From IMG/VR virus record IMGVR_UViG_3300031555_004728, positions 128,001 to 192,000 of that record: a stretch of DNA of 64,000 nt. One strand, written 5' to 3'. The DNA is from a virus (lineage: Duplodnaviria > Caudoviricetes). Positions 2,291 through 63,143 of the stretch are shown here, piece by piece; position 1 is the first letter of the stretch, and the number at the start of each line of letters is the position of its first letter. The notes beneath the pieces were generated by a model, which was not told the origin of the DNA, ran no database searches, and was given only the letters and a program-made list of their open reading frames with translations. A program made the translations under genes and the position numbers.

Positions 2291-2599
2291 TTATAGTTTT
2301 ATATATAAAATATATAAACAGATCTGATCATTTTGATGTGGTGTTCCATTAAAATTTGATGACCAATGTCTTAATGATATTACAGCAACTTCATTTTCAG
2401 GATAATCTGTATAAATATACATTCTTGGAGATACTACATATGTTGTAAACATGTTGTATCCTATAATACCAAGTGCCCTATATCCAGATATCCCTATAGA
2501 ATAGTCAAATTCAATAACAGAATTTGTATATGATGATGGTAGAGGAACAAAAACTTTTCTCACTTCAATATTAGTTAATAATTTTTGTTGGTTGCAGTT
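2291..2599 (-). CDS. Silent tail-fibre tip cassette C1 (102 aa from NCN)
   Basis: Open from the repeat end: NCNQQKLLTNIEVRKVF...YILYIKL*; in-frame TAA two codons upstream. Confidence 0.7.
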   Translation of the reverse strand, partial: NCNQQKLLTNIEVRKVFVPLPSSYTNSVIEFDYSIGISGYRALGIIGYNMFTTYVVSPRMYIYTDYPENEVAVISLRHWSSNFNGTPHQNDQICLYILYIKL

Positions 2600-2672
2600 T
2601 TGTTAAGTAAGATTTCTGTAATCTTCGTAAATTATCGATAACTAGAGAAATTTAACTTAACAAAATTGGTTC
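2591..2672 (-). repeat. 82-bp palindromic cassette repeat R1
   Basis: GAACCAATTTTGTTAAGT...ACTTAACAAAACTGCAAC on the minus strand. Confidence 0.97.
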
Positions 2673-2760
2673 CACCAATCCCTCTTCTTCCCTACATATT
2701 TATATCCTCTCTAAATATATACCAAAAACATTTTTTTAATTATATAGAAGGTGATAATTT

Positions 2761-3147
2761 ATGATAACAAATATTTCAAATATTTATAAAATAAAAGATA
2801 ATGAACCAGCATTTATATGTGAAACTTTAGGTCTTTGTAAAGCAGGAGAAAAATATCCACTTCATATACCACAATTAATGCCAAAAATAGATTTCAGAAG
2901 ACCTAAAATAGAAGTAGTTAGATCTAGAGGAACTCTCTGTTTTAAAAATAGTTCTAAATGTAGAGTATTAACTGCATCAGTTATAAAAACTCAAAACTAT
3001 TTAAATATTCCATTTGAACGAAATAAATCATGGGATTCTCAATATGATATTGATGATGCTGGAAATAAATTTATTAGAAAAGGGACTAAAGTTATTTGTA
3101 AATGTCCTACATCATCCATTAAGGATATGACATTTTCAAATGATTAA
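2761..3147 (+). CDS. Hypothetical protein (possible baseplate component)
   Basis: 128-aa ORF; SD AAGGTG; AACA-N6-TA at 2727-2738; directly upstream of the gp53-like gene. Confidence 0.55.
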   Translation: MITNISNIYKIKDNEPAFICETLGLCKAGEKYPLHIPQLMPKIDFRRPKIEVVRSRGTLCFKNSSKCRVLTASVIKTQNYLNIPFERNKSWDSQYDIDDAGNKFIRKGTKVICKCPTSSIKDMTFSND

Positions 3148-3161
3148 GGTGGTGATTTTAA

Positions 3162-3578
3162 ATGACTAAAAATTATGATACAATAGAAAACCAAGTTAAT
3201 AGTGAGAGTAAAGATGATCTTGGATATAGGGAGTATATAAGTAAACTTAGTATAACTGATGAAAGGTCTGGAGATACAATAGTTATTCCATATGAAAATA
3301 TAATCAATACTTATAGAGATTATTTAAAAGATTATGTTGTTGAAGAGGAATTGAATGATGAGATGTATATGAAATATAAACAAAATCCTCAAACTATTTC
3401 TGAAGCATTATATGGAACTATACATTTATGGCATACCATTTTGGAATTAAATGGATGTATTAGTAGATTAGATTTAGTTGGTAAGAAGATTAAGTATTAT
3501 AATCCTACAGTTATAGAAACTCTTCTTAATGAGGTTTTGTTAAAACATGATCAAGTAAATTCAATAAATATCTATTAA
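3162..3578 (+). CDS. Baseplate wedge protein, T4 gp53-like
   Basis: PQTISEALYGTIHLWHTILELN matches the P-x-x-I-S-x-x-L-Y-G...W-x-x-I-L-x-x-N pattern of gp53. Confidence 0.6.
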   Translation: MTKNYDTIENQVNSESKDDLGYREYISKLSITDERSGDTIVIPYENIINTYRDYLKDYVVEEELNDEMYMKYKQNPQTISEALYGTIHLWHTILELNGCISRLDLVGKKIKYYNPTVIETLLNEVLLKHDQVNSINIY

Positions 3579-3581
3579 TAA

Positions 3582-3609
3582 AAGGATATCTGGATTTCCA
3601 GATATCCTT
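3582..3609. terminator. Bidirectional terminator-like hairpin
   Basis: aaggatatctgga-tt-tccagatatcctt between convergent ORFs. Confidence 0.7.
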
Positions 3610-3615
3610 TTATTT

Positions 3616-3978
3616 TTATTTTATCCCAGCAACTGTAACCCAATAAGGTTGAGAAGTCCCCTCTGCTGGTAAATTATACATCCGTATATCAATCTGTGTA
3701 TCAGATATTGCATGAATATCTGCATATGCAGGTGGATTTAAAAATGAATATATTAATCTAGTTTTACTACCTTCAGAATTAATGCTATTATAAAATAAAG
3801 ACATTTCTAACATCATTGAATCTAATATGATATTAGCACTTGCTAAATATAAATGAACATATTTAAATTCCGAAAATTTCATTCCATTAATCAATGTTAA
3901 TTGACCAGAATATGAACCGTTAGCTGATGCAGTAGCAATAATTATTCTATTCTTTAACATCTCTTGTTGGTTGCAGTT
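3616..3978 (-). CDS. Silent tail-fibre tip cassette C2 (120 aa)
   Basis: NCNQQEMLKNRII...YWVTVAGIK*, in frame with the repeat core. Confidence 0.7.
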   Translation of the reverse strand, partial: NCNQQEMLKNRIIIATASANGSYSGQLTLINGMKFSEFKYVHLYLASANIILDSMMLEMSLFYNSINSEGSKTRLIYSFLNPPAYADIHAISDTQIDIRMYNLPAEGTSQPYWVTVAGIK

Positions 3979-4051
3979 TTGTTAAGTAAGTTTTCTGTAA
4001 TTCTCGTAAATTACCAATAGATAGAGAAAGTTAACTTAACAAAATTGGTTC
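3970..4051 (-). repeat. 82-bp repeat R2 (identical to R4 and R13)
   Basis: Direct sequence comparison. Confidence 0.97.
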
Positions 4052-4061
4052 CCCTCCCAAA

Positions 4062-4496
4062 TTATAAATCTTTTATTTTTATAACTTCAGCATATGTTCC
4101 TGCAATACCATCATTAACTGTAAATGCTTGAATTGTGTAAACTCCAAATTGCATTCCCTTTGTACATCTAACAAGTGCAATCATATCTGTAGTTGTATGA
4201 GTTCCATATTCAATATCATTTCCTATATAACTAGCAGAACCGTATTCATGTAATATAAACCATGATCTTTTCTCAGTTGTACTAGAAGTAGAACCTAGTA
4301 TATGTATATGTATTATAGCTAACATATCTTGTTGAATATTGATATAACCACCTCTATCAAATGTAGCTATTTCAGAATCTATAAGGCTTTCATCAGTATC
4401 ATCTTGAAAGAATGAAACATATTTTGAAGATGCTAATGAGTATGTATTTTTGGTATAACCAATTGAACTTTTAAACATTTCTTGTTGGTTGCAGTT
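4062..4496 (-). CDS. Silent tail-fibre tip cassette C3 (144 aa)
   Basis: NCNQQEMFKSSIG...EVIKIKDL*; beta-rich; tandem with C2. Confidence 0.7.
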   Translation of the reverse strand, partial: NCNQQEMFKSSIGYTKNTYSLASSKYVSFFQDDTDESLIDSEIATFDRGGYINIQQDMLAIIHIHILGSTSSTTEKRSWFILHEYGSASYIGNDIEYGTHTTTDMIALVRCTKGMQFGVYTIQAFTVNDGIAGTYAEVIKIKDL

Positions 4497-4569
4497 TTGT
4501 TAAGTAAGGTTTCTGTAATCCTCGTGAATTATCGAAAGATAGAGAAAGTTAACTTAACAAAATTGGTTC
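4488..4569 (-). repeat. 82-bp repeat R3
   Basis: Direct sequence comparison. Confidence 0.97.
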
Positions 4570-6420: not shown

Positions 6421-6759
6421 TTATGACTTTCCAATTATTAATACTGCTATCGATAAAATATGTCCACTTACAAGTCCACCATCTGGATAATTAGCTAATA
6501 AACGCAATCTTTTATTTGATGGTTCTGGTGCAGATGATAGAGTTATAGTATTTGTACAAGGAGTTTGACTAACATGATTTACTGTAAGATGTATAGTACA
6601 TTTTGCATATAAACCACTATCAAAAAATCCTGCTGGTAATAATTCACCTTCAGTAATATAAGTTTCTAATAAATTATTTGATGAGTAGTACATAGTTATA
6701 TTAAATGAACTAATTATTTTATATTTAAAATAATCTTCTTTTTCTTCTTGGTTGCAGTT
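6421..6759 (-). CDS. Silent tail-fibre tip cassette C4 (112 aa)
   Basis: NCNQEEKEDYFKYKIISSFNITMYYSS...IAVLIIGKS*. Confidence 0.7.
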   Translation of the reverse strand, partial: NCNQEEKEDYFKYKIISSFNITMYYSSNNLLETYITEGELLPAGFFDSGLYAKCTIHLTVNHVSQTPCTNTITLSSAPEPSNKRLRLLANYPDGGLVSGHILSIAVLIIGKS

Positions 6760-6832
6760 TTGTTAAGTAAGTTTTCTGTAATTCTCGTAAATTACCAATA
6801 GATAGAGAAAGTTAACTTAACAAAATTGGTTC
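6751..6832 (-). repeat. 82-bp repeat R4
   Basis: Direct sequence comparison. Confidence 0.97.
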
Positions 6833-6837
6833 CCCCC

Positions 6838-7131
6838 TTATAAATATCTTTCAATAAAAGAGCCATTTTCACATCTAAGATGACATAACGCTCCAGCAAA
6901 ATTATGTATAAATATAGATCCATATAATCGTGATGTGTAAATATATCCTTGAAATAGGTGTAATCCTGATGACCATATAATTCCACTTAATAATCTATCT
7001 GATGGAAGATTATTCCATTCTTGTTTTAAAGTATCTATAGGTCCATCACTACCTTCTAATAACATATTGATAGAATCGTTCACAGATATTAATTGGTTTA
7101 TAATATCTTGCTGATCCAGTTGGTTGCAGTT
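6838..7131 (-). CDS. Silent tail-fibre tip cassette C5 (97 aa)
   Basis: NCNQLDQQDIINQLISVNDS...FIERYL*; its stop lies 5 bp before R4. Confidence 0.7.
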   Translation of the reverse strand, partial: NCNQLDQQDIINQLISVNDSINMLLEGSDGPIDTLKQEWNNLPSDRLLSGIIWSSGLHLFQGYIYTSRLYGSIFIHNFAGALCHLRCENGSFIERYL

Positions 7132-7204
7132 TTGTTAAGTAAGATTTCTGTAATTCTCGTAAATTATCGATAACTAGAGAAATTTAACTTAACAAAATTG
7201 GTTC
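7123..7204 (-). repeat. 82-bp repeat R5
   Basis: Direct sequence comparison. Confidence 0.97.
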
Positions 7205-14384: not shown

Positions 14385-14759
14385 TTAACTTATATTATCA
14401 CTAAGTTTTATAGCTGCTAAATATGTAGCATTTCTAATATTATATGATGCACCCGATAAATTTTGAAAACAGAAATCTTTACCATCTTCACCAACATCAT
14501 ATATTTTACTAAATCCTGATTTATTACTAACTACACAATATCCAAAATTTAGTATAGGATCAGTTATTCCATCTACCCATGCTACAACATCAAATCCATC
14601 AGTAATACTTTCCCCAACCAAATAACCTATAATTAAATATATTCCTTTTGATAAATGGAATTCACAGAATTTTTCATCAACCCCTATAGTTCTATTACCA
14701 GAATATACAATTTTACTATCACCAACTCCTAAATTTATAATTTCTTGTTGGTTGCAGTT
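14385..14759 (-). CDS. Silent tail-fibre tip cassette C6 (124 aa)
   Basis: NCNQQEIINLGVGDSKIVYSG...LSKGIYLIIG...LAAIKLSDNIS*; no ATG in frame. Confidence 0.7.
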   Translation of the reverse strand, partial: NCNQQEIINLGVGDSKIVYSGNRTIGVDEKFCEFHLSKGIYLIIGYLVGESITDGFDVVAWVDGITDPILNFGYCVVSNKSGFSKIYDVGEDGKDFCFQNLSGASYNIRNATYLAAIKLSDNIS

Positions 14760-14832
14760 TTGTTAAGTAAGATTTCTGTAATCTTCGATAATTCTCTAAA
14801 GATAGAGAAATTTAACTTAACAAAATTGGTTC
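14751..14832 (-). repeat. 82-bp repeat R6 (identical to R9)
   Basis: Direct sequence comparison. Confidence 0.97.
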
Positions 14833-14860
14833 ACCATATATATATATATATATATATATA

Positions 14861-15229
14861 TTAAATACCTATCACCATATAAAAGACTCTAAAAATATTA
14901 TTTAAAGCAGTAGACTCTTCAAATATACCTATTGTATTATATACTTTAATAGCAAATTTAGTTGTAGTAACTGATTGTACCTGTGCAGTTGAATAAACAT
15001 CTAAACTTGATTGAGAGTTAGTAGGATTAATATATTTAGTTACAAGTGTTACTGGTATATTTGTATACTCAAATGGAAAATATACTACCTTATCAATAAT
15101 ATATTCTGTTTTAAAAGTATCAATAACTGTATATCCATATATAATTTTAATACCATTCTCAAACTTAATATACCCACAAATTTCATTATCATTATCATTA
15201 GTACTATACTCTATAATTCGATTGCAGTT
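14861..15229 (-). CDS. Silent tail-fibre tip cassette C7 (122 aa; typical fibre C-terminal domain), start-less
   Basis: Manual translation NCNRIIEYST...GYIKFENGIKIIYG...VYFPFEYTNIP...VFYMVIGI*; absent from the ORF track because it has no usable start. Confidence 0.8.
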   Translation of the reverse strand, partial: NCNRIIEYSTNDNDNEICGYIKFENGIKIIYGYTVIDTFKTEYIIDKVVYFPFEYTNIPVTLVTKYINPTNSQSSLDVYSTAQVQSVTTTKFAIKVYNTIGIFEESTALNNIFRVFYMVIGI

Positions 15230-15302
15230 TTGTTAAGTAAGTTTTCTGTAATTCTCGTGAATTATCGATAACTAGAGAAATTTAACTTAACAAAATTGGT
15301 TC
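15221..15302 (-). repeat. 82-bp repeat R7 (core variant AACTGCAAT)
   Basis: Direct comparison; the change is synonymous (Asn). Confidence 0.95.
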
Positions 15303-27057: not shown

Positions 27058-27139
27058 GAACCAATTTTGTTAAGTTAACTTTCTCTAGTTATCGAGATTT
27101 TCCTTAGATTACAGAAAACTTACTTAACAAAACTGCAAC
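27058..27139 (+). repeat. 82-bp repeat R8 (identical to R15)
   Basis: Direct sequence comparison. Confidence 0.97.
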
Positions 27140-27502
27140 CAACAAGAAATATTAGATAATATAACTATGATAAATGATGTATATTGGTTATATGAGGATG
27201 TAATAAATAACGATATAGTTATTTCGGTTATATTATATAAAATAACACAAACTATTTTTTATATTGATTTAAATATAACATGGAGAAGTGCTAGAACAGC
27301 TTTTGAAGATGAATTTCTCTGTTCTGGATTACCTATTCAAATTCAAAGCACTCAACGTTTACCGAGTTTAATTAAAGTTAGTACAAAAATCGTTGGATAT
27401 GGAGTTGCTGAATTTAAAAATGATTCAATTTATATTTCACATACTGGTTATGGTAATCCACATTCATTAGTTTGTACAGGTGTTTTAATACCAAACATAT
27501 AA
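27131..27502 (+). CDS. Silent tail-fibre tip cassette C8 (123 aa)
   Basis: NCNQQEILDNITMINDV...CSGLP...GVLIPNI*. Confidence 0.7.
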   Translation, partial: NCNQQEILDNITMINDVYWLYEDVINNDIVISVILYKITQTIFYIDLNITWRSARTAFEDEFLCSGLPIQIQSTQRLPSLIKVSTKIVGYGVAEFKNDSIYISHTGYGNPHSLVCTGVLIPNI

Positions 27503-27550: not shown

Positions 27551-27632
27551 GAACCAATTTTGTTAAGTTAAATTTCTCTATCTTTAGAGAATTATCGAAG
27601 ATTACAGAAATCTTACTTAACAAAACTGCAAC
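27551..27632 (+). repeat. 82-bp repeat R9
   Basis: Direct sequence comparison. Confidence 0.97.
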
Positions 27633-27992
27633 CAACAAGATTTAGTAAATAGATTACAAACTGTAAATGAAGGATATCATATATTTGAGAATGGTCTTAA
27701 AATATGTTTCGGTACAGGTTATTTCACAACAGTACAAAATGGACAGGTATTGAGTGGATTAATAGAATATCCTATCTCATTCAATAATAATCCTACAACT
27801 GTTATAACAAAAATTATGAGACCTGGTGTAGAAGGTGGTCAATGTGATTTACATTCAAATGTATCATTAATCGGATATAGTGATGGAAGAAAATGCTGGA
27901 TTAGATTTAATGTAAGTATTTCATATTTTGAGAATACAACTTGGATAAATGATAAAAATGTATATGTTTCATATATTGCTATAGGATATTAA
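27624..27992 (+). CDS. Silent tail-fibre tip cassette C9 (122 aa; typical fibre C-terminal domain)
   Basis: NCNQQDLVNRLQTVNEGYHIFENGLKICFG...YPISF...VSYIAIGY*. Confidence 0.8.
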   Translation, partial: NCNQQDLVNRLQTVNEGYHIFENGLKICFGTGYFTTVQNGQVLSGLIEYPISFNNNPTTVITKIMRPGVEGGQCDLHSNVSLIGYSDGRKCWIRFNVSISYFENTTWINDKNVYVSYIAIGY

Positions 27993-45173: not shown

Positions 45174-45323
45174 ACTAACCTCTTGGCTCTTGATATTATC
45201 TCCACCACATGTAATAAATTTTGTTTGCTGACGATTGTTTTTATTACGTCACGCTATGAACTTTTTTGATAGAAACAACTGATTTTATTTATTATTTTTG
45301 CTTCTATTCACAATAATATTATA

Positions 45324-45602: not shown

Positions 45603-45674
45603 GAAATCACACCCTTTCTATATTCTTTTTACACCAAAATAATATATCTTTTAATATATTTATTTTTACATATT

Positions 45675-45908: not shown

Positions 45909-45979
45909 ATTATTTATCTCCTTTTATTATATTTCATATAAATGATATATCAATAAAATCCATAAGGGAGAGGATGGGG

Positions 45980-46061
45980 GAACCAATTTTGTTAAGTTAA
46001 ATTTCTCTAGTTATCGATAATTTACGAGAATTACAGAAAACTTACTTAACAAAACTGCAAC
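45980..46061 (+). repeat. 82-bp repeat R10
   Basis: Direct sequence comparison. Confidence 0.97.
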
Positions 46062-46367
46062 CAACAAGAAATGTTTAATTATGTTGATCATTTATATGTA
46101 AATAAAAATAATTGTATAAATGGAACAAAAGTTATAGACTTTCCAACAGATAAAAATATAAATTTCATATCTGCATGTTTATGGAATGGTAATAACAGAA
46201 GTCATGAATATATAACAATACCATTATGTGCATTGGTTAGTAATAGAATTATAGAATTTAGAGATAATACTGGAGCTATATATGCATCAATTACAGTTTC
46301 TAGTGGTGTAGAAAAACTTACATTTGTATGTAACAATGAATGGTATTTATTATGTTTCTTTTTCTAA
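46053..46367 (+). CDS. Silent tail-fibre tip cassette C10 (104 aa)
   Basis: NCNQQEMFNYVD...FISACLWNG...; loosely similar in layout to the expressed tip (FLKVSFWNG). Confidence 0.7.
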   Translation, partial: NCNQQEMFNYVDHLYVNKNNCINGTKVIDFPTDKNINFISACLWNGNNRSHEYITIPLCALVSNRIIEFRDNTGAIYASITVSSGVEKLTFVCNNEWYLLCFFF

Positions 46368-46403
46368 TTATCTTGTATATGTGGAAGTACTATGATAAAG
46401 GGG

Positions 46404-46485
46404 GAACCAATTTTGTTAAGTTAAATTTCTCTAGTTATCGATAATTTCCTTTGATTACAGAAAACTTACTTAACAAAACTGCAAC
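46404..46485 (+). repeat. 82-bp repeat R11
   Basis: Direct sequence comparison. Confidence 0.97.
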
Positions 46486-46836
46486 AAGCAATTTAAACAA
46501 ATACCAACTGATGATACATTTGCAATAAGTCATACATTAGATATTTCTGGATATGATATAACTACTGAACTTATAATAAATATCCATATTGATAATACAG
46601 ATTGGACATTATATCACAGACTTATAAAAAATCAATTAGAATTTGATGATGCTGATGTGATAACATATAGAACAGGTCAAGCTTTTTATATTCCTGACTA
46701 TTCAACAACATATTTATTAGCTGCAAATTGTAGAGTTTACAAAAATAAAACACTTACTATTTCAGCTGCAATATATCAAACAGGTGGGGTTACATCTACA
46801 AATAATACTTTTTGTATTTCAGCATGGTATAGATAA
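46477..46836 (+). CDS. Silent tail-fibre tip cassette C11 (119 aa), start-less
   Basis: Manual translation NCNKQFKQIPTDD...FCISAWYR*; no ATG; not in the ORF track. Confidence 0.75.
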   Translation, partial: NCNKQFKQIPTDDTFAISHTLDISGYDITTELIINIHIDNTDWTLYHRLIKNQLEFDDADVITYRTGQAFYIPDYSTTYLLAANCRVYKNKTLTISAAIYQTGGVTSTNNTFCISAWYR

Positions 46837-46877
46837 TAAAATAGAGTAAGAGTTAAAAAACTCTTACTCTATTATTT

Positions 46878-49663: not shown

Positions 49664-49742
49664 ATTATCACCATCCTTTCTTTAAAGAATAGTTTTTTTA
49701 ATGTAAAAATATTCTAGGTAGATAATCTACCTAGAATATTTA

Positions 49743-50063
49743 TTAATTATATATACCTACAATTTTCACAATTCTAAATGATGAAACATCTACTGATGAG
49801 GGGTTTTCTATATAAAAACTATTATCATCAGATTTTACAAAAGCATATAAATAATATTCAGAATATGGTAATATAAATGCATGTGAATTAATATCACGTG
49901 CAAATATGAATGTTTGATAGTATTGACCTGTTTTTACAAATGTAACTAACAAATATTCTATTTTTGAAATATTTTCATCATAAAATACTTCAGTTAATGG
50001 ATATCCATTATATAAAAAATATAAAACTTTATTTTTACTTTGTTTAAATTGTTGGTTGCAGTT
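49743..50063 (-). CDS. Silent tail-fibre tip cassette C12 (106 aa)
   Basis: NCNQQFKQSKNKVLYFLYNG...IVKIVGIYN*; no ATG. Confidence 0.7.
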   Translation of the reverse strand, partial: NCNQQFKQSKNKVLYFLYNGYPLTEVFYDENISKIEYLLVTFVKTGQYYQTFIFARDINSHAFILPYSEYYLYAFVKSDDNSFYIENPSSVDVSSFRIVKIVGIYN

Positions 50064-50136
50064 TTGTTAAGTAAGTTTTCTGTAATCTTCGTGAATTACT
50101 GAGAGATAGAGAAATTTAACTTAACAAAATTGGTTC
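50055..50136 (-). repeat. 82-bp repeat R12
   Basis: Direct sequence comparison. Confidence 0.97.
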
Positions 50137-50261
50137 CCATCCCCTCTCCACCTTCTCTCACATACTATTTTTTATAATAATAACCTTAAAATAGCATTTT
50201 TAATTTTTACCCAATATTGATATATTATTTTAATAGATATTAAAGAAGGAGATTTATAATT

Positions 50262-52304: not shown

Positions 52305-52339
52305 AAATAAGAGAGTGTAAAAAACACTCTCTTATTTTT

Positions 52340-55744: not shown

Positions 55745-55755
55745 CTCAATTCTTT

Positions 55756-57306: not shown

Positions 57307-57504
57307 GGCTAATTCACCTTCTTTCTGTATCTTTCTGCCTTAAACTATTGTTTTCTGGGTTAATTTGCATAGGTAGAAACAAGTAATTAAGGGTGATGTG
57401 TACAAATGTTTATTGTCATCTATTTTATACTCAGTAGGAAATCTCACGTCCTACTGAGTATATTTTGTTAAAATAATATATTTTTGGATAGGTTGTGAGG
57501 ATAG

Positions 57505-57586
57505 GAACCAATTTTGTTAAGTTAACTTTCTCTATCTATTGGTAATTTACGAGAATTACAGAAAACTTACTTAACAAAACTGCAAC
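57505..57586 (+). repeat. 82-bp repeat R13
   Basis: Direct sequence comparison. Confidence 0.97.
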
Positions 57587-57910
57587 CACCAAATATATTA
57601 TACAAAACATGAGACTGAAAATGGTATTGAATGTTTTAGAGTTGGTAACATGGTTGAACTTTCATGTATAACAACATTTGATTTTCAGACTGATGGTACA
57701 ATACCAGATAATGTTGTTATACCATATGGATATAGACCATATTATAGGGGTATTCGTTTTCCAGTAATTCTTAGATCTGGTAGTGAGTATACATGTTGTA
57801 AAGGTTTTTTAACAATTGACGGTGTATTAACATTTGATAGTGTATCTTATAGTTGGAGAGAAGTACATTTTGTTTTAAGTTATATAACAAATGATGATTA
57901 TCCATCTTAA
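57578..57910 (+). CDS. Silent tail-fibre tip cassette C13 (110 aa)
   Basis: NCNHQIYY...FRVGNMVEL...IPYGYRP...LSYITNDDYPS*; the R-x-G-N-x-V and P-x-G-Y-R-P pattern is typical of fibre tips. Confidence 0.8.
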   Translation, partial: NCNHQIYYTKHETENGIECFRVGNMVELSCITTFDFQTDGTIPDNVVIPYGYRPYYRGIRFPVILRSGSEYTCCKGFLTIDGVLTFDSVSYSWREVHFVLSYITNDDYPS

Positions 57911-57924
57911 AAAATTAAGATGGG

Positions 57925-57942
57925 GAACCAATTTTGTTAAGT
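57925..57942 (+). repeat. Left half-site of the repeat (GAACCAATTTTGTTAAGT) upstream of the tail-fibre gene; an extra TTTTGTTAAGTAAAAT at about 57960-57975
   Basis: Exact match to the first 18 bp of R1-R15, with the same G-run lead. Confidence 0.9.
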
Positions 57943-58100
57943 AAAATAAACAAAAACTTTTTTGTTAAGTAAAATTTTTATTGTAAAAATATACCATAAA
58001 TAAAATAAAAAACATTCTTTTAATGTGAAATACTACGGAGTTCTATCCGTATTTTCCTTTATTATTTTCATGAAAATATTAAAACAAGGAGGATTTTGAT

Positions 58101-59528
58101 ATGAGTACAGTAAGACATCATATTGAAATGACCCACTTAGATTCGGGTGGAAATAAATATATACTTTATCCAAAGAATACCTTGGCTGACGTTCATACGA
58201 GCTCAACATCAGGTGTTACGATCGACGGAAAAGTTAATTTCTATGGAACTTGTACAACAGCTGCAGTTACAGCTGCTAAAACTGCTTCAATTAGCGGATT
58301 TACACTTGCACAAGGACAACATGTAACAATAGCTTTCACTAACGGAATTACAGTAGCAAGTCCTACTTTAAATATCAATAGTCTCGGTGCAAAAGCTATT
58401 TATCACAAAGGTGCAGCTTTAAAAGCAAATGTTATTAGAGCAGGTGCACGTGTTCAATTAGTTTATGACGGAACTAACTTTGAAGTATTAAACTTTGATG
58501 CACCATACGCACAAAGTAACAACACTACAAAGTTTTATTTGTTAGGTACACCTAACGCTGAAAATGGTGTTCCATCTGACCAATACTTCGATACAGGCGT
58601 ATATGTAAGTGCAACAGATGGTCAATTAGTTGCAAAATCATTCTCTGGTAATGGTTCTGCATTAACAAACTTGAATGCTGGAAATATTGCTTCTGGTACA
58701 GTAGCAGCAGATAGACTTCCAACTTCAGGTGCAACAGCTGGAACTTATGGTGAAAATGCTGGAGATAATACATCATTAGCTCATAGTGGTTCTCTTGTAG
58801 TTCCAAAAATTTCATTAGACAAATACGGTAGAATTACATCTGCTGAAAACATTGTTTATACAATGCCAGCAAATGAAAATACTGATGAAAAAGTAAAAGT
58901 AACTCAAAATGCTACTACAAAAGCATATGTAACAGGTACAACAACTGCAAATGGAAATGCTGGTGGATTATTATATGATCCAAATGTATATCTTGATACA
59001 ACATCTGGTAGATTCCATGCAGCAACAATGAACTCAAATACTTACTACCTCGGAGATACTTCTAACTACATTGACAGTTCAAATTATACTGGAACTGCAG
59101 CAAATGTCGGAACACTTTCTGAGTGGTTGGTAGATAGTTGTGCTTCAGATAGTGCTAACGGAGTCACCAATCAGGCACTTACAGCTAATCAGGGATATTT
59201 GTTACAAAATCAGATTGATGAGCTAAACTGCAACCTGAATGAATTTGGAACACCTATTACAACAATTTATACTGATACTGTAGAAAAATCTGTAGAGATA
59301 CCACCTAATGCTAGATTTTTAAAAGTTAGTTTTTGGAATGGTTATGATAAATATTATGGGGCAGATATGTTTCATGCAAGAGGATTAAAAACTAGTGGAT
59401 CGGTGAATATTATACTTAGAGTTAGGTATGATAATTACATAGCACAAATAACAATAACACCAAATTCAAATATACTTAAATTTAAAATGGAATCAGGTTC
59501 AATTAATGTAATGCTTCATTTTATATAA
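58101..59528 (+). CDS. Tail fibre protein: constant region aa 1-375, then the NCN junction and a 100-aa tip
   Basis: PTLNINSLGAKAI, LVYDGTNF, FSGNGSALTNLNA, DKYGRITS, ALTANQGYLLQNQIDEL fibre motifs; GGAGG SD; AACA-N6-TA at 58011. Confidence 0.9.
   Translation: MSTVRHHIEMTHLDSGGNKYILYPKNTLADVHTSSTSGVTIDGKVNFYGTCTTAAVTAAKTASISGFTLAQGQHVTIAFTNGITVASPTLNINSLGAKAIYHKGAALKANVIRAGARVQLVYDGTNFEVLNFDAPYAQSNNTTKFYLLGTPNAENGVPSDQYFDTGVYVSATDGQLVAKSFSGNGSALTNLNAGNIASGTVAADRLPTSGATAGTYGENAGDNTSLAHSGSLVVPKISLDKYGRITSAENIVYTMPANENTDEKVKVTQNATTKAYVTGTTTANGNAGGLLYDPNVYLDTTSGRFHAATMNSNTYYLGDTSNYIDSSNYTGTAANVGTLSEWLVDSCASDSANGVTNQALTANQGYLLQNQIDELNCNLNEFGTPITTIYTDTVEKSVEIPPNARFLKVSFWNGYDKYYGADMFHARGLKTSGSVNIILRVRYDNYIAQITITPNSNILKFKMESGSINVMLHFI
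59225..59235 (+). other. Core junction AAACTGCAACC inside the tail-fibre gene
   Basis: Same sequence and frame (N-C-N, codons 376-378) as the 3' end of the repeats. Confidence 0.85.
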
Positions 59529-59565
59529 ATATTATATATAAAATACTATTAAGAAGGTGAGGGGA

Positions 59566-59647
59566 GAACCAATTTTGTTAAGTTAAATTTCTCTATCTAT
59601 CGATAATTTCCTTTGATTACAGAAAACTTACTTAACAAAACTGCAAC
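59566..59647 (+). repeat. 82-bp repeat R14
   Basis: Direct sequence comparison. Confidence 0.97.
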
Positions 59648-59998
59648 CAACAAGAATTGGTAGCATCATTAACTCCACATGAATCATATGGAGCACATAT
59701 GAATCCTACATATGATGCACAACATTCACTTTTTACATTAGGTAGATTTAAAATTGTATCCGGAACTGTAGAAAGTAAGCATTTTCCATATAATAGTAAT
59801 TCTGGTGCGTATGAATATACTTCATATTTTTCATACCCATTTAATGTGATACCTAGAGTTTTGGTTACTGCAGAATATCCTGCAGGATTACCAGAAGTTT
59901 GTGTAGCTTCAGTAACTACTACATATGTAAAACTTTCATGTAGTTCACAATTAAATAGTTTATGGGTAAATTGGTTTGCATTTTCATTTGATGAATAA
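59639..59998 (+). CDS. Silent tail-fibre tip cassette C14 (119 aa; H-type lectin-like)
   Basis: NCNQQELVASL...FSYPFNVIPRVLVT...VNWFAF. Confidence 0.75.
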   Translation, partial: NCNQQELVASLTPHESYGAHMNPTYDAQHSLFTLGRFKIVSGTVESKHFPYNSNSGAYEYTSYFSYPFNVIPRVLVTAEYPAGLPEVCVASVTTTYVKLSCSSQLNSLWVNWFAFSFDE

Positions 59999-60034
59999 AA
60001 AAAAGAAGAGGGTTTTTAATCCTCTTCTTTTTTC

Positions 60035-60859
60035 TTATAAAATACTTCCAATAGAATCTAAATCCATATCTCTATACATTTTATCAAACATGATGTTTGA
60101 AAATACAGAGCAGTTTTCATTATCTGGAATTGGATAAATATATGTCATTGGATATTTACCCATTTCTTCATAAAACATTTGTGCTACCACATTTGGATTG
60201 TTTTTAAATACACCACAACCATAAGCACCAAGATATAAAATATCAACTAAATGAGAATATGCACATTGCATTAGAATCTGAATTCTTTCTCTCATCGTAG
60301 ATTCTATTTCTTCTTCAGAAACATTATTTCGTAAAGCTGCCCCTCTATTAGGTGCTGCAATAGTAATAACGTCTGCTTTAAAGATACTACCTTTTTCACC
60401 AATAAATATAACATCTGGAGTATAAATCATTCTATGCTTATATAGAGCTTTATTTTTATTCTCTCTATTATAATGATAGAATGTGTCATCGAATGCTTCC
60501 AATATAGGATACAATGTACTAGAATGGCAGATACACTCTTCCTGAGCACTTGAACCTTTAATAAACATCCCACCTGGATTTTTATATGAAGCGAAATTTA
60601 ATACACAAATTTTATTCTTCTTTGATTTTGAATTTGTAACAGCTTCAACAATTCCAGATTTAATAATTTTACATTTAAATGCACCAGAGTTGTCTCTTTC
60701 TAGATTATCTTTTAATAACTCCATGCAATTTTCTTCAGTATATACAACAGAATTTTGAATTGAATATTCTATTTCATCTTGAAATCTTCTGTGCATATCA
60801 ACTATATGCTCACGTGCTTTTTCTTTGTTAAGCTCTTTCTTTGTCCAATAATTAATCAT
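60035..60859 (-). CDS. TIGR02452-type PARG-like macrodomain ADP-ribose glycohydrolase
   Basis: VLNFASYKNPGGMF..GSSAQEECIC.SSTL, IYTPDV, AAPN, LGAYGCGVFKN. Confidence 0.9.
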   Translation of the reverse strand: MINYWTKKELNKEKAREHIVDMHRRFQDEIEYSIQNSVVYTEENCMELLKDNLERDNSGAFKCKIIKSGIVEAVTNSKSKKNKICVLNFASYKNPGGMFIKGSSAQEECICHSSTLYPILEAFDDTFYHYNRENKNKALYKHRMIYTPDVIFIGEKGSIFKADVITIAAPNRGAALRNNVSEEEIESTMRERIQILMQCAYSHLVDILYLGAYGCGVFKNNPNVVAQMFYEEMGKYPMTYIYPIPDNENCSVFSNIMFDKMYRDMDLDSIGSIL

Positions 60860-61073
60860 GATAAAATCCTCCTTATATAAGACATTTCTACAAAAATAAT
60901 ATATTTACAAAAACGAATATTATTCATTAATATAGATATATTATTTTGATGTACAAGGGCACTTGTACACCACCTATTAATTATTCAACAGTGCCCTTGT
61001 GCACCTTATTTTTTATTTATTAATTAAAACAAATTATTAAATCATAAAATATTAGAAAGGAAAGTATGAATTT

Positions 61074-61466
61074 ATGAAAACTATTGATAAATTGAAATTA
61101 GCAATTTTCGAAGCTGGTAATAATGGCATTATCGATGAAGGTAAAGTTAAAGAAATGATTACTGTTTGCGAATCTGCTAATATGGAAAATCAGGATGATG
61201 TAAACGCTCTGACTAAGATTACAGAAGAGTTAATTTCAGTTACAGAATCTGTTGAAAATCCAGAAGCTCCTGTTGTTGAAGAACCAGTAGTTCCTGAAGA
61301 GCAACCTGTTCAAGAATCAGTTGCTGAGATTCAGCATAAAGAAGAAACTCCTTCTGTAAATATGACAGAACTTAAACTTGAGATCTTTGAAAGTGAAGCA
61401 AGTGGTCAAATTACTCCAGAAGAAAGAGATCTCTTGCTAAGTATGATGGATGTACATACAGCTTAA
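61074..61466 (+). CDS. Acidic head/scaffold-type protein
   Basis: IFEA, VCES, VTES, VQES, IFES motifs; AACA-N6-TA at 61028. Confidence 0.55.
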   Translation: MKTIDKLKLAIFEAGNNGIIDEGKVKEMITVCESANMENQDDVNALTKITEELISVTESVENPEAPVVEEPVVPEEQPVQESVAEIQHKEETPSVNMTELKLEIFESEASGQITPEERDLLLSMMDVHTA

Positions 61467-61506
61467 TAAATATGAGATACAGAAAAATCTGTATCTCATA
61501 TTTATT

Positions 61507-62157
61507 TTATTTTCCTTGATATGCTTTAAGATAAAGACCTGGTTCTCTTACTTTAGTAGATGGGGTATTAAATTTTTTAGATATTTCATGATCTTTTATC
61601 TCTTCACCTCTACTTCTAATAGATTCTATAGGCACATTACTCTTATTTTCTTTACCAATTTCTAACCGTGACTCATTGTCTAAAGGGCTAGAATAATAAT
61701 CTCCTCTTGAATAATTTTCTTTATATTTGTTAAGTTTATTTGATAAATCGTGTTCAAGTTTTTTAATTTGAAGTGTGATTTTTTCTTTAACAGAATCACT
61801 TGCTGTTTTTTGTATTTTTTTTAACGCTTTAATTTTTTCTTCAGTTTCTTCATTTTGTTTTCTTAATTCTTGTAATGCTTTTGTATGTTCTTTTTCATAT
61901 CTAGTTGCTTCCAAAAGAACTATACACTCATCATTATCAATAATACCTTCTGTAAATCTTTCTAGTACTGAAATATGATATTTAGAATTATCTACTGATT
62001 CTAATAATAATATACATTCATCTACTGATATATCACCATTAATTACTGATTCTGTAATTGAATCAATAACTGCTGGTTCAGTTTCAATAACCATATCTTC
62101 AACTGATTCTGTAACACAGTCTAAAATATTGTCTAAAAGTTGTTCAAATTTACTCAT
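61507..62157 (-). CDS. Head-type protein with an acidic propeptide-like N-terminus
   Basis: VTES, ITES, LLES, FTEG, LLEA, then a basic coiled coil. Confidence 0.55.
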   Translation of the reverse strand: MSKFEQLLDNILDCVTESVEDMVIETEPAVIDSITESVINGDISVDECILLLESVDNSKYHISVLERFTEGIIDNDECIVLLEATRYEKEHTKALQELRKQNEETEEKIKALKKIQKTASDSVKEKITLQIKKLEHDLSNKLNKYKENYSRGDYYSSPLDNESRLEIGKENKSNVPIESIRSRGEEIKDHEISKKFNTPSTKVREPGLYLKAYQGK

Positions 62158-62242
62158 ATTATTAAATCCCTTTCTCTATATTTAATGAACCCAAAACAAA
62201 GTTTTAATAAAACTTTGTTTTAGGAATTTTTGTTAAAATATT

Positions 62243-63070
62243 CTAATACCAATTGCCTGCTTCAACGCCAATATATTGACTTTCGCTACCATAATAAAAA
62301 TAAACCGTTGTACTTAACGGTGCAACTTCATTAAATGTAATTTGTACAGCATTATATGCATATCCTATAGCTTTTATAGTACCACCAGAATCTATACCAT
62401 TATATTTTAAACCACATGAAGTAGTTACACCATTAATGACAGTTCTAGATGTTCCAGCCATATTATTTATAATCCATGGATCATGAATATAAATACTTCC
62501 ACCAGAATCAGATCCACAAACATATTGTCCATATGGTAATTTGTAATAATATCTTTGACATAACCTCAGTTCTTCATCATATCTTCTAGGAATATTTCCT
62601 GTAAACTTAGTACCCTTTTCAAGTTTTATAAAGTCTATATTATAACTATCAGTCATTAATACTGAAAATTCATCATAATTTTCTATTGGACCTCCTGTGT
62701 GTCTTGTATATGATAACTTTAAATTTGGTGATATAATAAATGAATCACTTACAGATCCATTTATTATATATGATCTTATAACTCCATCAAAACTTATAGT
62801 TATAGTATACTGAGCATTATCATCTATTGTATACTCTAAGATTTGTTTTAGTTCAACTGATTTAACAGTTCCTATATTAATAGATATACCTGAATTATCA
62901 TTTAATTTTGATACTATTGGCATAGTATCATTTGGATTATTTATAGTAATATATTTAATCCACATATCTGCTGTATATCCACTCGCTCCAGTATTAAAAC
63001 TAGTACCTCTTTGCCATACTTGAAAATTTCCATTAATTAAAATATTAGGGTTAACAAATTGGTTGCAGTT
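62243..63070 (-). CDS. Silent tail-fibre cassette C15 (275 aa)
   Basis: NCNQFVNPNILINGNFQVWQRGTSF...YTADMW...KLEKG...EELRLCQRYY. These fibre motifs begin upstream of the first ATG. Confidence 0.85.
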   Translation of the reverse strand, partial: NCNQFVNPNILINGNFQVWQRGTSFNTGASGYTADMWIKYITINNPNDTMPIVSKLNDNSGISINIGTVKSVELKQILEYTIDDNAQYTITISFDGVIRSYIINGSVSDSFIISPNLKLSYTRHTGGPIENYDEFSVLMTDSYNIDFIKLEKGTKFTGNIPRRYDEELRLCQRYYYKLPYGQYVCGSDSGGSIYIHDPWIINNMAGTSRTVINGVTTSCGLKYNGIDSGGTIKAIGYAYNAVQITFNEVAPLSTTVYFYYGSESQYIGVEAGNWY

Positions 63071-63143
63071 TTGTTAAGTAAGTTTTCTGTAATCTAAGGA
63101 AAATCTCGATAACTAGAGAAAGTTAACTTAACAAAATTGGTTC
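63062..63143 (-). repeat. 82-bp repeat R15
   Basis: Direct sequence comparison. Confidence 0.97.

What the first reader, a model, noticed from the sequence alone, without database searches (positions are those of the whole stretch)
2291..63143. Genome-dispersed library of 15 silent tail-fibre tip cassettes, each fused to an 82-bp palindromic repeat
Seen: 15 copies of GAACCAATTTTGTTAAGT-N54-AAACTGCAA(C/T), all exactly 82 bp. They start at 2591, 3970, 4488, 6751, 7123, 14751, 15221, 50055 and 63062 (-) and at 27058, 27551, 45980, 46404, 57505 and 59566 (+). In all 15 the terminal AAC-TGC-AAC/T (N-C-N) opens a 97-275 aa frame, with an in-frame TAA two codons upstream and no SD. Several frames have no usable start (C6, C7, C11, C12). 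In C9, C13 and C15 the conserved fibre motifs begin before the first start codon. The cassettes are mutually divergent, but several carry fibre-tip signatures (GY.xFENG..I..G/Y.AIG; RxGNxV/PxGYRP; NILINGNFQVWQRG/LCQRYY). The one complete fibre gene has the same AAACTGCAACC in the same frame at the start of its last 100 aa. Inference: the cassettes are interchangeable receptor-binding tips, expressed only when joined to the constant region at this core, which would give a host-range switching system. Known analogues (Mu Gin, P1 Cin, R64 shufflon) are contiguous invertible loci and DGRs use an RT. I do not recognise a described version scattered among essential genes on both strands.
Basis: partly seen in the sequence, partly recalled or inferred. 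Interest (0 to 1): 0.97.

Follow-up and report, generated by a model that had tools for sequence, protein, structure and literature searches.

The report
Scattered swap-in tips for a phage tail fibre
A 275-kb gut phage keeps one tail-fibre gene and about 35 start-less spare fibre tips scattered through its genome, each behind the same 82-base palindromic site, and close relatives carry different spares joined to the same fibre, so the phage swaps its host-recognition tip by DNA recombination.

Summary
All 15 reported 82-nt elements are present, plus a truncated copy at 57925 just upstream of the fibre gene, and there are 35 full copies across the 275,512-bp phage genome. Each opens a 90-276 aa frame (QNCN...) that mostly lacks a usable start.

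Fibre genes with constant regions at least 95% identical are joined at the NCN core to four different tips. Two of these are "silent" cassettes here (C6, C13), and our expressed tip is a silent cassette in a relative.

A second lineage (G001, fibre 65% identical) has its own diverged 82-nt element (16 intact cassette copies, 2 decayed). A contig with 0 mismatches over 33 kb to G001 joins the fibre to another of G001's cassettes, exactly at that lineage's 11-nt core.

Junctions map to both ends of the element: 7 nt, a 68-nt palindrome, then 7 nt. Of 30 rearrangement junctions between the two lineages, 27 lie at elements.

Each genome encodes one Xer-like tyrosine recombinase and no serine recombinase, RT or Y1 transposase. 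A relative with neither element nor recombinase exists.

Best reading: a genome-dispersed, shufflon-like tip-switching system. Not shown: the enzyme, the switching rate, expression and host-range effect.

The parts
57925..57942 (+). Truncated element: the 5' arm only (site A of the expression module), preceded by a G-run
   Evidence: In the relative L007, the junction with a different upstream flank lies within this arm.
57943..58100 (+). Leader of the fibre gene. It holds a second copy of the arm motif, a terminator-like hairpin at 58034-58051, and the SD AAGGAGG before the ATG. It travels with the constant region as one unit.
   Evidence: L007 7823-9135 matches window 57923-59235 at 96.8% identity.
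58101..59225 (+). Constant region of the tail-fibre gene (aa 1-375)
   Evidence: Homologues at 95-96% identity carry other tips. Homologues carry tail-fibre Pfam domains.
59225..59235 (+). 11-nt core AAACTGCAACC (site B of the expression module; encodes NCN)
   Evidence: the only copy outside the elements; the crossover lies within it.
59226..59528 (+). Currently expressed tip (tipF, 100 aa plus stop)
   Evidence: 31% identical to cassette E12, E = 6e-12. Present as a silent cassette in the relative L008 at 91%. AF2 model is a beta-sandwich, pLDDT 74.
2291..2672 (-). Cassette C1: element 2591-2672 plus frame 2291-2602
3616..4051 (-). Cassette C2: element 3970-4051 plus frame 3616-3981
4062..4569 (-). 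Cassette C3: element 4488-4569 plus frame 4062-4499
6421..6832 (-). Cassette C4: element 6751-6832 plus frame 6421-6762
6838..7204 (-). Cassette C5: element 7123-7204 plus frame 6838-7134
   Evidence: Silent in both genomes compared, dN/dS 0.22.
14385..14832 (-). Cassette C6: element 14751-14832 plus frame 14385-14762. Its homologue is the expressed tip in the relative L007.
14861..15302 (-). Cassette C7: element 15221-15302 plus frame 14861-15232
   Evidence: The upstream flank of this element abuts the fibre module in L007.
27058..27502 (+). Cassette C8: element 27058-27139 plus frame 27128-27502
27551..27992 (+). Cassette C9: element 27551-27632 plus frame 27621-27992
   Evidence: Matches phrog_2712 (tail fibre) at its C-terminal end, E = 5.6e-4.
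45980..46367 (+). Cassette C10: element 45980-46061 plus frame 46050-46367
46404..46836 (+). Cassette C11: element 46404-46485 plus frame 46474-46836
49743..50136 (-). Cassette C12: element 50055-50136 plus frame 49743-50066. It lies directly upstream of the intron-split large terminase gene.
57505..57910 (+). Cassette C13: element 57505-57586 plus frame 57575-57910. It is the expressed tip in P0002.
   Evidence: 99% identity. Matches phrog_16877 (minor tail protein) at its C-terminal end, E = 2.9e-5.
59566..59998 (+). Cassette C14: element 59566-59647 plus frame 59636-59998, 37 nt after the fibre stop
   Evidence: Absent at this place in the relative L008.
62243..63143 (-). Cassette C15: element 63062-63143 plus frame 62243-63073 (276 aa)
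   Evidence: Matches phrog_4492 (tail fibre protein) at positions 788-1039 of 1096, E = 2e-18. dN/dS 0.44 against L008.

Best explanation
This is a genome-dispersed, shufflon-like system that switches the tip of a jumbo phage's tail fibre. SHOWN: The genome has one expression module, made of a 5' arm, leader with SD, a 375-aa constant region and an 11-nt core. It also has 35 start-less tip cassettes, 15 of them in the window. Each cassette lies behind an 82-nt element built as a 7-nt outer segment (site A), a 68-nt imperfect palindrome, and a 7-nt outer segment (site B, which encodes C-N of the NCN motif). DNA crossovers occur within the 11-nt core (site B) and within the 5' arm (site A). They join the constant region to different tips and put the former tip behind an element. 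The same crossovers move or invert the ordinary genes lying between elements. INFERRED: The crossovers are site-specific and catalysed by the phage's single Xer-like tyrosine recombinase. It would act on asymmetric sites with one conserved arm and a 7-nt spacer. Sites A and B have different spacers, so A would pair only with A and B only with B. This would allow the whole expression module to be exchanged for the 46-nt filler of any element. Also inferred: cassettes are untranslated until joined (no start codon, stop at positions 68-70); the tips are receptor-binding domains; and switching changes host range.
For: (1) Anatomy. There are 15 full elements in the window and 35 in the genome, all exactly 82 nt. 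The outer 21 nt at each end are almost invariant, and there are 22 different central variants. There is a single truncated 5' arm and a single extra core, both flanking the fibre constant region. (2) Tip swaps in lineage 1. Four different tips follow NCN on constant regions at least 95% identical: P0001, P0002 (= our C13, 99%), P0003, and L007 (= our C6). Our own tip is a cassette in L008. (3) Junctions. All 4 synteny-breaking junctions in the 33 kb of the relative contig lie in an element. L007 7823-7847 is in the 5' arm, L007 9125-9135 and L008 8000-8008 are in the core, and L008 11447-11527 is an element. (4) Lineage 2 (G001, 278,849 bp, fibre 65% identical) has 18 cassette-type copies of a diverged 82-nt element, 16 intact, plus one truncated arm before its fibre. 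Its own 11-nt core is CTAAATAGTAA and it has an in-frame TAG at positions 68-70. The two consensus elements align without gaps, 54 of 82 identical. Dyad symmetry is kept through 2 double compensatory changes (pairs 11-72 and 32-51). (5) A recent event. Contig G002 equals G001 127887-137342 plus 153861-177427, with 0 mismatches in 9,456 and 23,567 nt. The two parts overlap by exactly the 11-nt core, so the fibre is fused to G001's silent cassette at 153791. (6) More swaps. Lineage 2 has 4 tips on constant regions at least 95% identical, and a third lineage (P0006, P0007) has 2 tips on 98%-identical constant regions. (7) Of 30 rearrangement junctions between G000 and G001, 27 have an element or cassette at the junction in at least one genome, against 0.18 per junction end by chance. 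(8) Cassettes silent in both genomes compared are under purifying selection, with dN/dS 0.22 (C5) and 0.44 (C15). (9) There is one tyrosine recombinase at G000 202143-203168. It scores 238.8 bits against NF040815 (cut-off 220), and its catalytic R, K, HxxR, H and Y align with structure 4a8e. An orthologue at 74% identity is in G001. The genome has no serine recombinase, Y1 transposase or RT. The complete relative G003 has neither a recombinase nor a comparable repeat family. (10) Fibre identity. Three of 15 cassettes match only the C-terminal ends of tail-fibre or minor-tail PHROGs. Homologues of the constant region carry tail-fibre Pfam domains.
Against: There are no read-level data. Three IMG/VR contigs are colinear and 99.9-100% identical to G000 across elements E01-E03, so rearrangement is not rampant. 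The recombinase link rests on presence or absence in 3 complete genomes plus the lack of other candidates, and the gene is not adjacent to any element (about 6-7 kb away). The fibre's own copy of site B keeps only about 6 of the 11 arm positions. No canonical two-armed site exists in the window. The G002 junction joins direct repeats, so it is a deletion or a translocation and not an inversion. A simple 16.5-kb deletion would remove genes conserved between lineages, and only 33 kb of that genome is seen. Twelve of 15 cassettes and the expressed tip match no family, and the tip model has no significant structural neighbour. The G-run upstream of the elements looks like an SD and is only explained by inference.
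Confidence: 0.75

Rival explanations
1. The tips do swap at the DNA level, but there is no dedicated recombinase. The 82-nt elements would be portable homology, like the PeSL promoter/stem-loop motifs of T4-type phages, used by the phage's general recombination machinery. Selection then keeps useful chimeras, and the Xer-like enzyme does something else, such as resolving concatemers or dimers.
For: Phage recombination is very active. The central parts of the elements are mosaics of shared variants, which suggests ordinary exchange among copies. PeSLs are a described precedent for repeat-mediated modular shuffling (PMC2839356 and PMC4122927; search listing and abstract starts only). The recombinase is not next to any element.
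Against: The fibre shares only 11 nt with the elements at site B. Yet at least 5 independent B junctions are seen: L007, L008, G002, P0002 and P0003. Such a short match is a poor substrate for homologous recombination (established knowledge, not tested here). The exact 82-nt length, the 7+68+7 symmetry and the compensatory changes across lineages are not needed for mere homology. The elements and the recombinase occur together (2 genomes with both, 1 with neither).
Confidence: 0.18
2. The cassettes are not silent. Each would be translated on its own from the G-rich SD-like run through the element, by ribosomal bypass or shunting over the hairpin or by small-intron removal. This would give many free tip proteins that dock on the fibre.
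For: A G-run lies immediately upstream of 26-28 of 35 elements. ATT and TTG lie at element positions 7-12. The element folds as a hairpin (z = -2.07). The frames are kept open and under purifying selection.
Against: The frame from TTG stops after 3 codons. The only matching codon pairs (TGT/TGC, CAA, AAC) lie in a frame with no start upstream (my reading). The same G-run precedes the truncated arm, where no frame follows. In lineage 2, ATT is followed at once by TAG. No Rfam family hits the elements. Chimeric genes in DNA already explain how tips are expressed.
Confidence: 0.04
3. Joining happens at the RNA level, by trans-splicing or by polymerase template switching at the core, and the DNA chimeras are incidental.
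For: The phage has self-splicing group I introns and its own multisubunit RNA polymerase. The core is conserved at the nucleotide level.
Against: No 5' half of a split intron follows the constant region. All joined forms observed are in DNA contigs. No RNA data are available.
Confidence: 0.02

Closest known systems
Rin shufflon of Bifidobacterium prophages (PMC6109161; passages read)
   Same: A phage-encoded tyrosine recombinase. A constant N-terminal RBP region (Rc) plus alternative C-terminal coding segments (Rv) that are 6-30% identical to one another. An asymmetric 11-bp repeat upstream of each variable segment where the crossovers fall.
   Different: Rin has about 5 segments in one contiguous locus, flanked by the invertase gene, and works by inversions within that locus. 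Here there are 35 cassettes spread over about 190 kb among ordinary genes. The site is an 82-nt palindromic element with two ends (A and B) that both recombine. The constant region with its leader behaves as an exchangeable module. The recombinase is Xer-like and not adjacent to any element.
R64 plasmid shufflon (Rci acting on sfx sites); recalled, not read here
   Same: A tyrosine recombinase acts on asymmetric sites in which a 7-bp spacer and one arm are conserved and the other arm is not. It switches the C-terminal segments of one protein (PilV).
   Different: It is clustered, inversion-only and on a plasmid, and it switches pilus adhesins. Here the sites are dispersed and at least one junction (G002) joins direct repeats.
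Gin (Mu), Cin (P1) and Min (p15B) tail-fibre inversion systems (as described in PMC6109161)
   Same: Phage tail-fibre C-terminal parts are switched by site-specific DNA recombination to change host specificity.
   Different: These use serine invertases and contiguous invertible segments. No serine recombinase is present in this genome.
Integrons (IntI with attC and attI); recalled
   Same: Promoter-less cassettes, each tied to an imperfectly palindromic structured site of similar length. A tyrosine recombinase. Expression only at one promoter-bearing site.
   Different: Here the site precedes the cassette, and the GTT.../...AAC motifs occur in the opposite order to attC. The junction is inside a reading frame. 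The recombinase scores 91.9 bits against the integron-integrase model, whose cut-off is 265. The cassettes are not in a single array.
Silent-cassette antigenic variation (Neisseria pilE/pilS, Borrelia expression sites); recalled
   Same: One expression locus and many dispersed start-less partial genes that are kept under selection.
   Different: Those work by non-reciprocal gene conversion in bacteria. Here the flanks move together with the tip, which indicates reciprocal crossovers, and the system is in a virus.
PeSL motifs of T4-type phages (PMC2839356, PMC4122927; listing and abstract starts only)
   Same: Dispersed conserved stem-loop repeats in phage intergenic regions that mark the boundaries of shuffled modules.
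   Different: PeSLs are promoter/terminator motifs flanking whole genes. Here the repeat ends inside a reading frame and serves a single acceptor gene.

Membership tests
Shufflon (Rci/sfx, Rin/rix type) | One constant N-terminal coding region joined alternatively to several variable C-terminal segments | tested here: met
   Four tips on constant regions at least 95% identical in lineage 1, 4 in lineage 2 and 2 in lineage 3
Shufflon (Rci/sfx, Rin/rix type) | A short conserved crossover sequence at the constant/variable boundary and before every variable segment | tested here: met
   The 11-nt core is present in 35 of 35 elements and once in the fibre. Junctions fall within it.
Shufflon (Rci/sfx, Rin/rix type) | A tyrosine recombinase encoded by the same replicon | tested here: met
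   One PF00589 protein with its catalytic residues. Whether it acts on these sites cannot be tested here.
Shufflon (Rci/sfx, Rin/rix type) | Segments clustered in one contiguous invertible locus next to the recombinase gene | tested here: not met
   The cassettes span 29.5-220.4 kb in 22 arrays or singletons. The recombinase is about 6-7 kb from the nearest element.
Shufflon (Rci/sfx, Rin/rix type) | Rearrangement by inversion only | tested here: not met
   G002 against G001 joins two cores in direct orientation 16.5 kb apart. The JAEIGA contig against G000 can be derived by inversions, but this is my reconstruction and is not unique.
Integron | IntI-type integrase, an attC site at the 3' end of each cassette, and a single attI/Pc array | tested here: not met
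   TIGR02249 scores 91.9 bits against a cut-off of 265. The element lies 5' of the cassette and the cassettes are dispersed.
Serine-invertase fibre switches (Gin/Cin/Min) | A resolvase/invertase-family serine recombinase | tested here: not met
   PF00239: 0 matches in G000. The control matched in 12 of 14 genomes.
Diversity-generating retroelement | A reverse transcriptase with a template/variable repeat pair | tested here: not met
   PF00078: 0 matches. The tips are unrelated sequences, not mutated copies of one another.
Programmed translational bypass (T4 gene 60 type) | Matched take-off and landing codons in a frame that is translated from upstream | tested here: not met
   The matching codons lie only in a frame with no start, and the frame from TTG ends after 3 codons (my reading).
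IS200/IS605 or REP/RAYT hairpin elements | A Y1 (HUH) transposase | tested here: not met
   PF01797: 0 matches

The most novel reading that the evidence does not exclude
A programmed, recombinase-driven system operating across the whole chromosome. A single promoter-bearing constant module, flanked by two non-compatible sites (A and B), is exchanged during each infection for the filler of any of about 35 docking elements. One burst would then release progeny with many different receptor specificities. As a by-product the enzyme would continually invert and translocate blocks of essential genes, so that gene order in the central 190 kb is not fixed within the species. This would be a natural form of cassette exchange using two incompatible sites, and the largest receptor-tip repertoire known for a phage.
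Probability: 0.4. Interest if true: 0.92.

Novelty: new variant of a known kind. Interest (0 to 1): 0.85.

Why it matters
Host range is the main limit on what a phage can infect. The known ways to vary it on demand are small contiguous inversion loci (2 to about 6 alternatives) or retroelement mutagenesis. This system would give one phage some 36 ready-made, mutually unrelated tips. The library is kept under selection while unexpressed and is scattered beside essential genes such as the large terminase, a helicase and RNA polymerase.

The system also links tip switching to large-scale reshuffling of a viral chromosome. That could explain why gene order in these gut jumbo phages is scrambled exactly where the elements lie.

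The two-ended 82-nt site and its partner Xer-like enzyme, conserved with co-varying sequence in two lineages, make a defined and testable recombinase/site pair. It also matters for metagenomics, because such genomes break or mis-join at these repeats and the tips are annotated as orphan small ORFs.

Tried and rejected
Translational bypass, shunting or a mini-intron within the element. I listed the codons of all three frames. There is no in-frame start, the frame from TTG stops after 3 codons, and the G-run also precedes the truncated arm. Rejected as the main mechanism.

Integron attC. The GTTAAGT and ACTTAAC motifs fit the core and inverse-core patterns (patterns recalled), but in the opposite order, and the integrase model scores far below its cut-off.

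A resemblance of the 11-nt arm to Xer-binding arms of chromosomal dif sites is recalled only. It was not tested and no letters are given.

A canonical two-armed site (both arms around a 5-9 nt spacer): 0 in the window.

The filler acting as an intrinsic terminator: none of the 12 terminator-like sites in 45000-64000 lies in an element. The lineage-2 filler looks more terminator-like, but this was not tested.

Rfam: only two group I introns, nothing on the elements.

tRNAs or suppressors: none in the window or in 4 loci.

GenBank phage collection: no DNA match to 50000-64000 and no protein match to the fibre. The RNA polymerase beta subunit is about 30% identical to those of AR9, PBS1 and the staphylococcal jumbo phages.

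IMG/VR scans with the fibre, P0006 and P0009 found no relatives. An exact-motif scan returned only contigs 99.9-100% identical to G000.

Profile search with the tipF family: 7 hits in 1.84 billion proteins, too few for a deep alignment.

Fold search of the tip model: 0 hits at E <= 0.001. The best by probability were a monocin side fibre (9j1l, TMq 0.60) and the phi812 baseplate. This is weak and is not used as support.

Sequencing runs: no RNA holder listed, and all 22 runs are kept as contigs.

Covariation within lineage 1 is uninformative because the arms are invariant, and positions 22/61 occur in both paired and unpaired combinations.

Paper supplements were closed and not consulted. They may hold shufflon site tables that bear on the comparison with Rin.

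Full report
WHAT THE WINDOW IS. The window is positions 128001-192000 of a complete 275,512-bp virus record with direct terminal repeats and 28.5% G+C. It encodes a multisubunit RNA polymerase beta subunit about 30% identical to those of AR9, PBS1 and the staphylococcal jumbo phages. It also encodes virion structural proteins and a 2,991-aa protein with a lysin-like domain. Its large terminase gene is interrupted by two group I introns. Public runs that hold the window are animal gut or faecal metagenomes, all kept as contigs.

THE OBSERVATION. The 18-nt 5' arm occurs 16 times with no mismatch (0.31 expected). The sixteenth, at 57925-57942, has only the arm and lies just upstream of the fibre gene. 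All 15 complete elements run in one fixed frame into open frames of 98-276 aa beginning QNCN, with TAA at element positions 68-70.

Genome-wide there are 35 complete copies, 13 on the + strand and 22 on the - strand, between 29.5 and 220.4 kb, in 22 arrays or singletons. Four of the 35 frames contain no ATG, GTG or TTG at all. Twenty-four of 35 have none in the first 14 codons. In a genome this AT-rich, open frames of about 100 codons are not expected by chance.

The outer 21 nt at each end of the element are essentially invariant. The centre occurs in 22 variants that look like mosaics of one another. The fibre gene (58101-59528) contains AAACTGCAACC in frame (ELNCN) 100 codons before its stop. 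This is the only copy of that 11-mer outside the elements in the genome (0.07 expected). The fibre's last 100 aa are homologous to cassette E12 (31% identity over 108 aa, E = 6e-12). So the expressed tip belongs to the same pool as the cassettes.

A metagenome contig (JAEIGA010000180.1; loci L007 and L008) carries the same fibre constant region, 95% identical in protein and 96.8% in DNA. After NCN it continues into the homologue of our silent cassette C6. The homologue of our expressed tip (91% identical) lies elsewhere on that contig, on the other strand, behind a complete 82-nt element and without a start codon.

The protein collection holds two more fibres with constant regions 95-96% identical to ours. 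P0002 continues after NCN into our cassette C13 (99% identical). P0003 continues into a tip that our genome lacks. That makes four tips on one constant region. The constant region has diverged little between the two genomes (dS 0.078), while the tips have diverged more (dS 0.18-0.60). Two cassettes that are silent in both genomes have dN/dS of 0.22 and 0.44, so the unexpressed copies are kept functional.

WHERE THE DNA IS JOINED. In the 33 kb of the relative that I could see, the colinear differences from our genome are ordinary indels. All four synteny-breaking junctions fall in an element:
- One lies inside the 5' arm. The upstream flank of our element E21 abuts the arm that precedes the fibre leader.
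- Two lie inside the 11-nt core.
- One lies at an element whose two flanks come from E29 and E12.

The stretch from the truncated arm through the leader and constant region to the core therefore behaves as one unit whose flanks change on both sides. I call the two ends site A (element positions 1-18, preceded by a G-run) and site B (the 3' arm plus CTGCAAC).

A SECOND LINEAGE WITH ITS OWN VERSION. A profile of the fibre family found G001, a complete 278,849-bp phage with a fibre 65% identical to ours. It has 19 copies of a different 5' arm. One is a truncated arm before its fibre gene. Eighteen are cassette-type copies, of which 16 are intact 82-nt elements and 2 are decayed. The intact elements end in CTAAATAGTAA, the sequence found at the same place in its fibre (TLNS K/N). 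They have an in-frame TAG at positions 68-70, a G-rich run upstream, and frames of 94-457 aa beginning LNS.

The consensus elements of the two lineages align without a gap over 82 nt (54 identical). Both are symmetric about position 41.5: 7 nt, a 68-nt palindrome, 7 nt. Two pairs changed on both sides between lineages (11-72 TA to AT; 32-51 TA to GC). Several mismatches in lineage 1 are pairs in lineage 2, and two pairs became G-T. So the architecture is conserved while the sequence co-varies. That indicates a selected structure or a symmetric protein-binding site.

A RECENT EVENT. Contig G002 (33,012 bp, a different IMG/VR record) is G001 127887-137342 followed by G001 153861-177427. There are 0 mismatches over 9,456 and 23,567 nt, and the two parts overlap by exactly the 11-nt core. 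In G002 the fibre therefore ends in the tip that is a silent cassette at 153791 in G001. An 11-nt repeat is shorter than the word lengths assemblers use (general knowledge), so this junction should rest on real reads.

The two cores are in direct orientation, so the event is either a 16.5-kb deletion or part of a translocation. The segment contains genes conserved between lineages, which favours relocation. Only 33 kb of that genome is visible, so this is open.

Within lineage 2, four fibres with constant regions at least 95% identical carry four tips. In a third lineage, two fibres 98% identical in the constant region carry two tips.

GENOME-WIDE CONSEQUENCE. Between G000 and G001 the outer parts of the genome are colinear, but the cassette-bearing centre is scrambled into about 30 blocks in both orientations. 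Of 30 rearrangement junctions, 15 contain a G001 element, 24 have a G000 cassette within 1.5 kb beyond a block end, and 27 have one or the other. A random end has a 0.18 chance.

With crude ORF calls, 14 of 22 cassette arrays sit at strand-switch points, against 56 of 222 other gene boundaries (Fisher p = 4e-4). Cassettes lie directly beside the large terminase gene (C12), a Dda-like helicase (C7) and RNA polymerase beta (C8).

WHICH ENZYME. G000 encodes one tyrosine recombinase (202143-203168, which is 10 kb beyond the window). It scores above the cut-off of the XerA / integron-type model (238.8 against 220 bits). The catalytic R, K, HxxR, H and Y align to the Pyrococcus XerA structure 4a8e. 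G001 has an orthologue at 74% identity, and the JAEIGA contig contains part of the gene. There is no serine recombinase, Y1 transposase or reverse transcriptase.

G003, a complete 249,613-bp relative whose fibre is 40% identical, has no tyrosine recombinase and no comparable repeat family. Its most frequent 20-mer occurs 8 times, against 35 in G000. That gives two genomes with both features and one with neither, which is suggestive and nothing more.

HOW IT MOST LIKELY WORKS. What is shown is that reciprocal DNA crossovers in the 11-nt core and in the 5' arm join one constant module to different tips. The rest is inferred.
- Each end of the element would be an asymmetric core-type site, with one conserved 11-nt arm, a 7-nt spacer (GAACCAA at A, CTGCAAC at B) and a non-conserved outer arm. 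I recall this layout for the sfx sites of the R64 shufflon.
- The spacers differ, so A should pair only with A and B only with B.
- A single B x B event between inverted sites swaps tips and inverts everything in between.
- Between direct sites, B x B excises or, between genome copies, translocates the interval.
- A x A plus B x B exchanges just the module for a 46-nt filler.
- The arrangement in the JAEIGA contig can be derived from ours by three inversions: B(fibre) x B(E20), A(fibre) x A(E21), and A(E20) x A(E31). This is my reconstruction and is not unique.
- The fibre's own site B keeps only the inner part of the arm, because the rest has to encode ...IDEL.
- The stop codons in the filler and the lack of start codons would keep the cassettes untranslated.
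- The G-run, which also precedes the truncated arm where nothing is translated, is more likely the outer arm of site A than a ribosome-binding site.

ARE THE CASSETTES FIBRE TIPS? C15 matches the last 250 positions of a tail-fibre PHROG (E = 2e-18). C9 and C13 match the extreme C-terminal ends of tail-fibre and minor-tail families (E = 5.6e-4 and 2.9e-5). The other 12 cassettes and the expressed tip match nothing.

Homologues of the constant region carry tail-fibre repeat, tail-collar, collagen and lectin domains. An AlphaFold model of the expressed tip, built from an alignment of 5 sequences, is a seven-stranded beta-sandwich (pLDDT 74). It has no significant structural neighbour. The nearest by probability are a monocin side fibre and a phage baseplate protein. 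The tip role therefore rests mainly on position, that is on being the C-terminal 100-275 aa of a fibre. It does not rest on fold.

COMPARISON WITH WHAT IS KNOWN. The closest described system is the Rin shufflon of bifidobacterial prophages. It has a tyrosine invertase, a constant RBP part, five variable C-terminal genes and an asymmetric 11-bp crossover repeat, all in one contiguous locus (PMC6109161; passages read). The R64 shufflon (recalled) and the serine-invertase systems Gin, Cin and Min are also contiguous.

Four full-text searches combining shufflon, inverton, silent cassettes, tail fibre, receptor-binding protein, tyrosine recombinase and jumbo found no description of a dispersed version. 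This system works like a shufflon but fails two of its defining features, the contiguous locus and inversion-only rearrangement. It also adds a two-ended palindromic site and a mobile expression module. I class it as a new variant of a known kind.

LIMITS. Switching within a population, its frequency, the silence of the cassettes and any host-range effect are therefore untested. The recombinase assignment is circumstantial. Three IMG/VR contigs identical to G000 are colinear across E01-E03, so rearrangement is not so frequent that every assembly differs.

Noticed in passing
window 46878-49663 (-): The large terminase gene is split by two group I introns (Rfam RF00028 at 47331-47608 and 48560-48867, 81.5 and 79.8 bits). 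The first exon (48824-49663) matches terminase large-subunit PHROGs. The two downstream ORFs match nothing on their own.
   Followed up: partly
window 57943-58100 (+): The fibre leader contains a second direct copy of the arm motif (TTTTGTTAAGTAAAAT) about 30 nt after the first, with a degenerate 3'-arm-like stretch between them. It also has a terminator-like hairpin with a T-run at 58034-58051, upstream of the SD. This could be remnants of earlier recombination or a regulatory leader. Lineage 2 has the same layout.
   Followed up: partly
window 14833-14860: A (TA)n run of about 26 nt replaces the usual G-rich tract immediately upstream of element E20/C6.
   Followed up: no
window 31608-40583 (-): A 2,991-aa ORF in the G+C-richest part of the window (33-35%), with only a lysin-like domain recognised at residues 2326-2415. 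It may be a virion-associated or tape-measure-like giant protein.
   Followed up: no
window 60035-60859 (-): A microbial-type poly(ADP-ribose) glycohydrolase catalytic domain (PF10021, E = 4.6e-30), between cassettes C14 and C15.
   Followed up: no
L008 13056 (-), L007 16582 (+), G001 96094 (+) and 41519 (-): Decayed copies. One element has a changed core (AAAAGTGCAAC) followed by a 17-aa frame. One has a 59-aa frame. One lineage-2 element has a 1-nt insertion in the core. One lineage-2 copy has lost its 3' arm and precedes an ordinary SD and ATG.
   Followed up: partly
G000 200853-203633 vs G001 62877-65663: The block holding the recombinase gene is inverted relative to both neighbouring blocks between the two lineages, with no element at either junction. 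These are 2 of the 3 rearrangement junctions that lack an element.
   Followed up: no
L023 6277-8640 (G003): The element-free relative has two tandem paralogous fibre genes (repeats of 152-207 nt at 1.7-kb spacing, 75-77% identical). This is a different way of carrying two fibre versions.
   Followed up: no
L002 and L003 (IMG/VR contigs identical to G000): Two independent assemblies end within a few nucleotides of an element (E01 and E04). That is expected if assemblers break at these 82-nt repeats, so such phages will tend to be fragmented in metagenomes.
   Followed up: no
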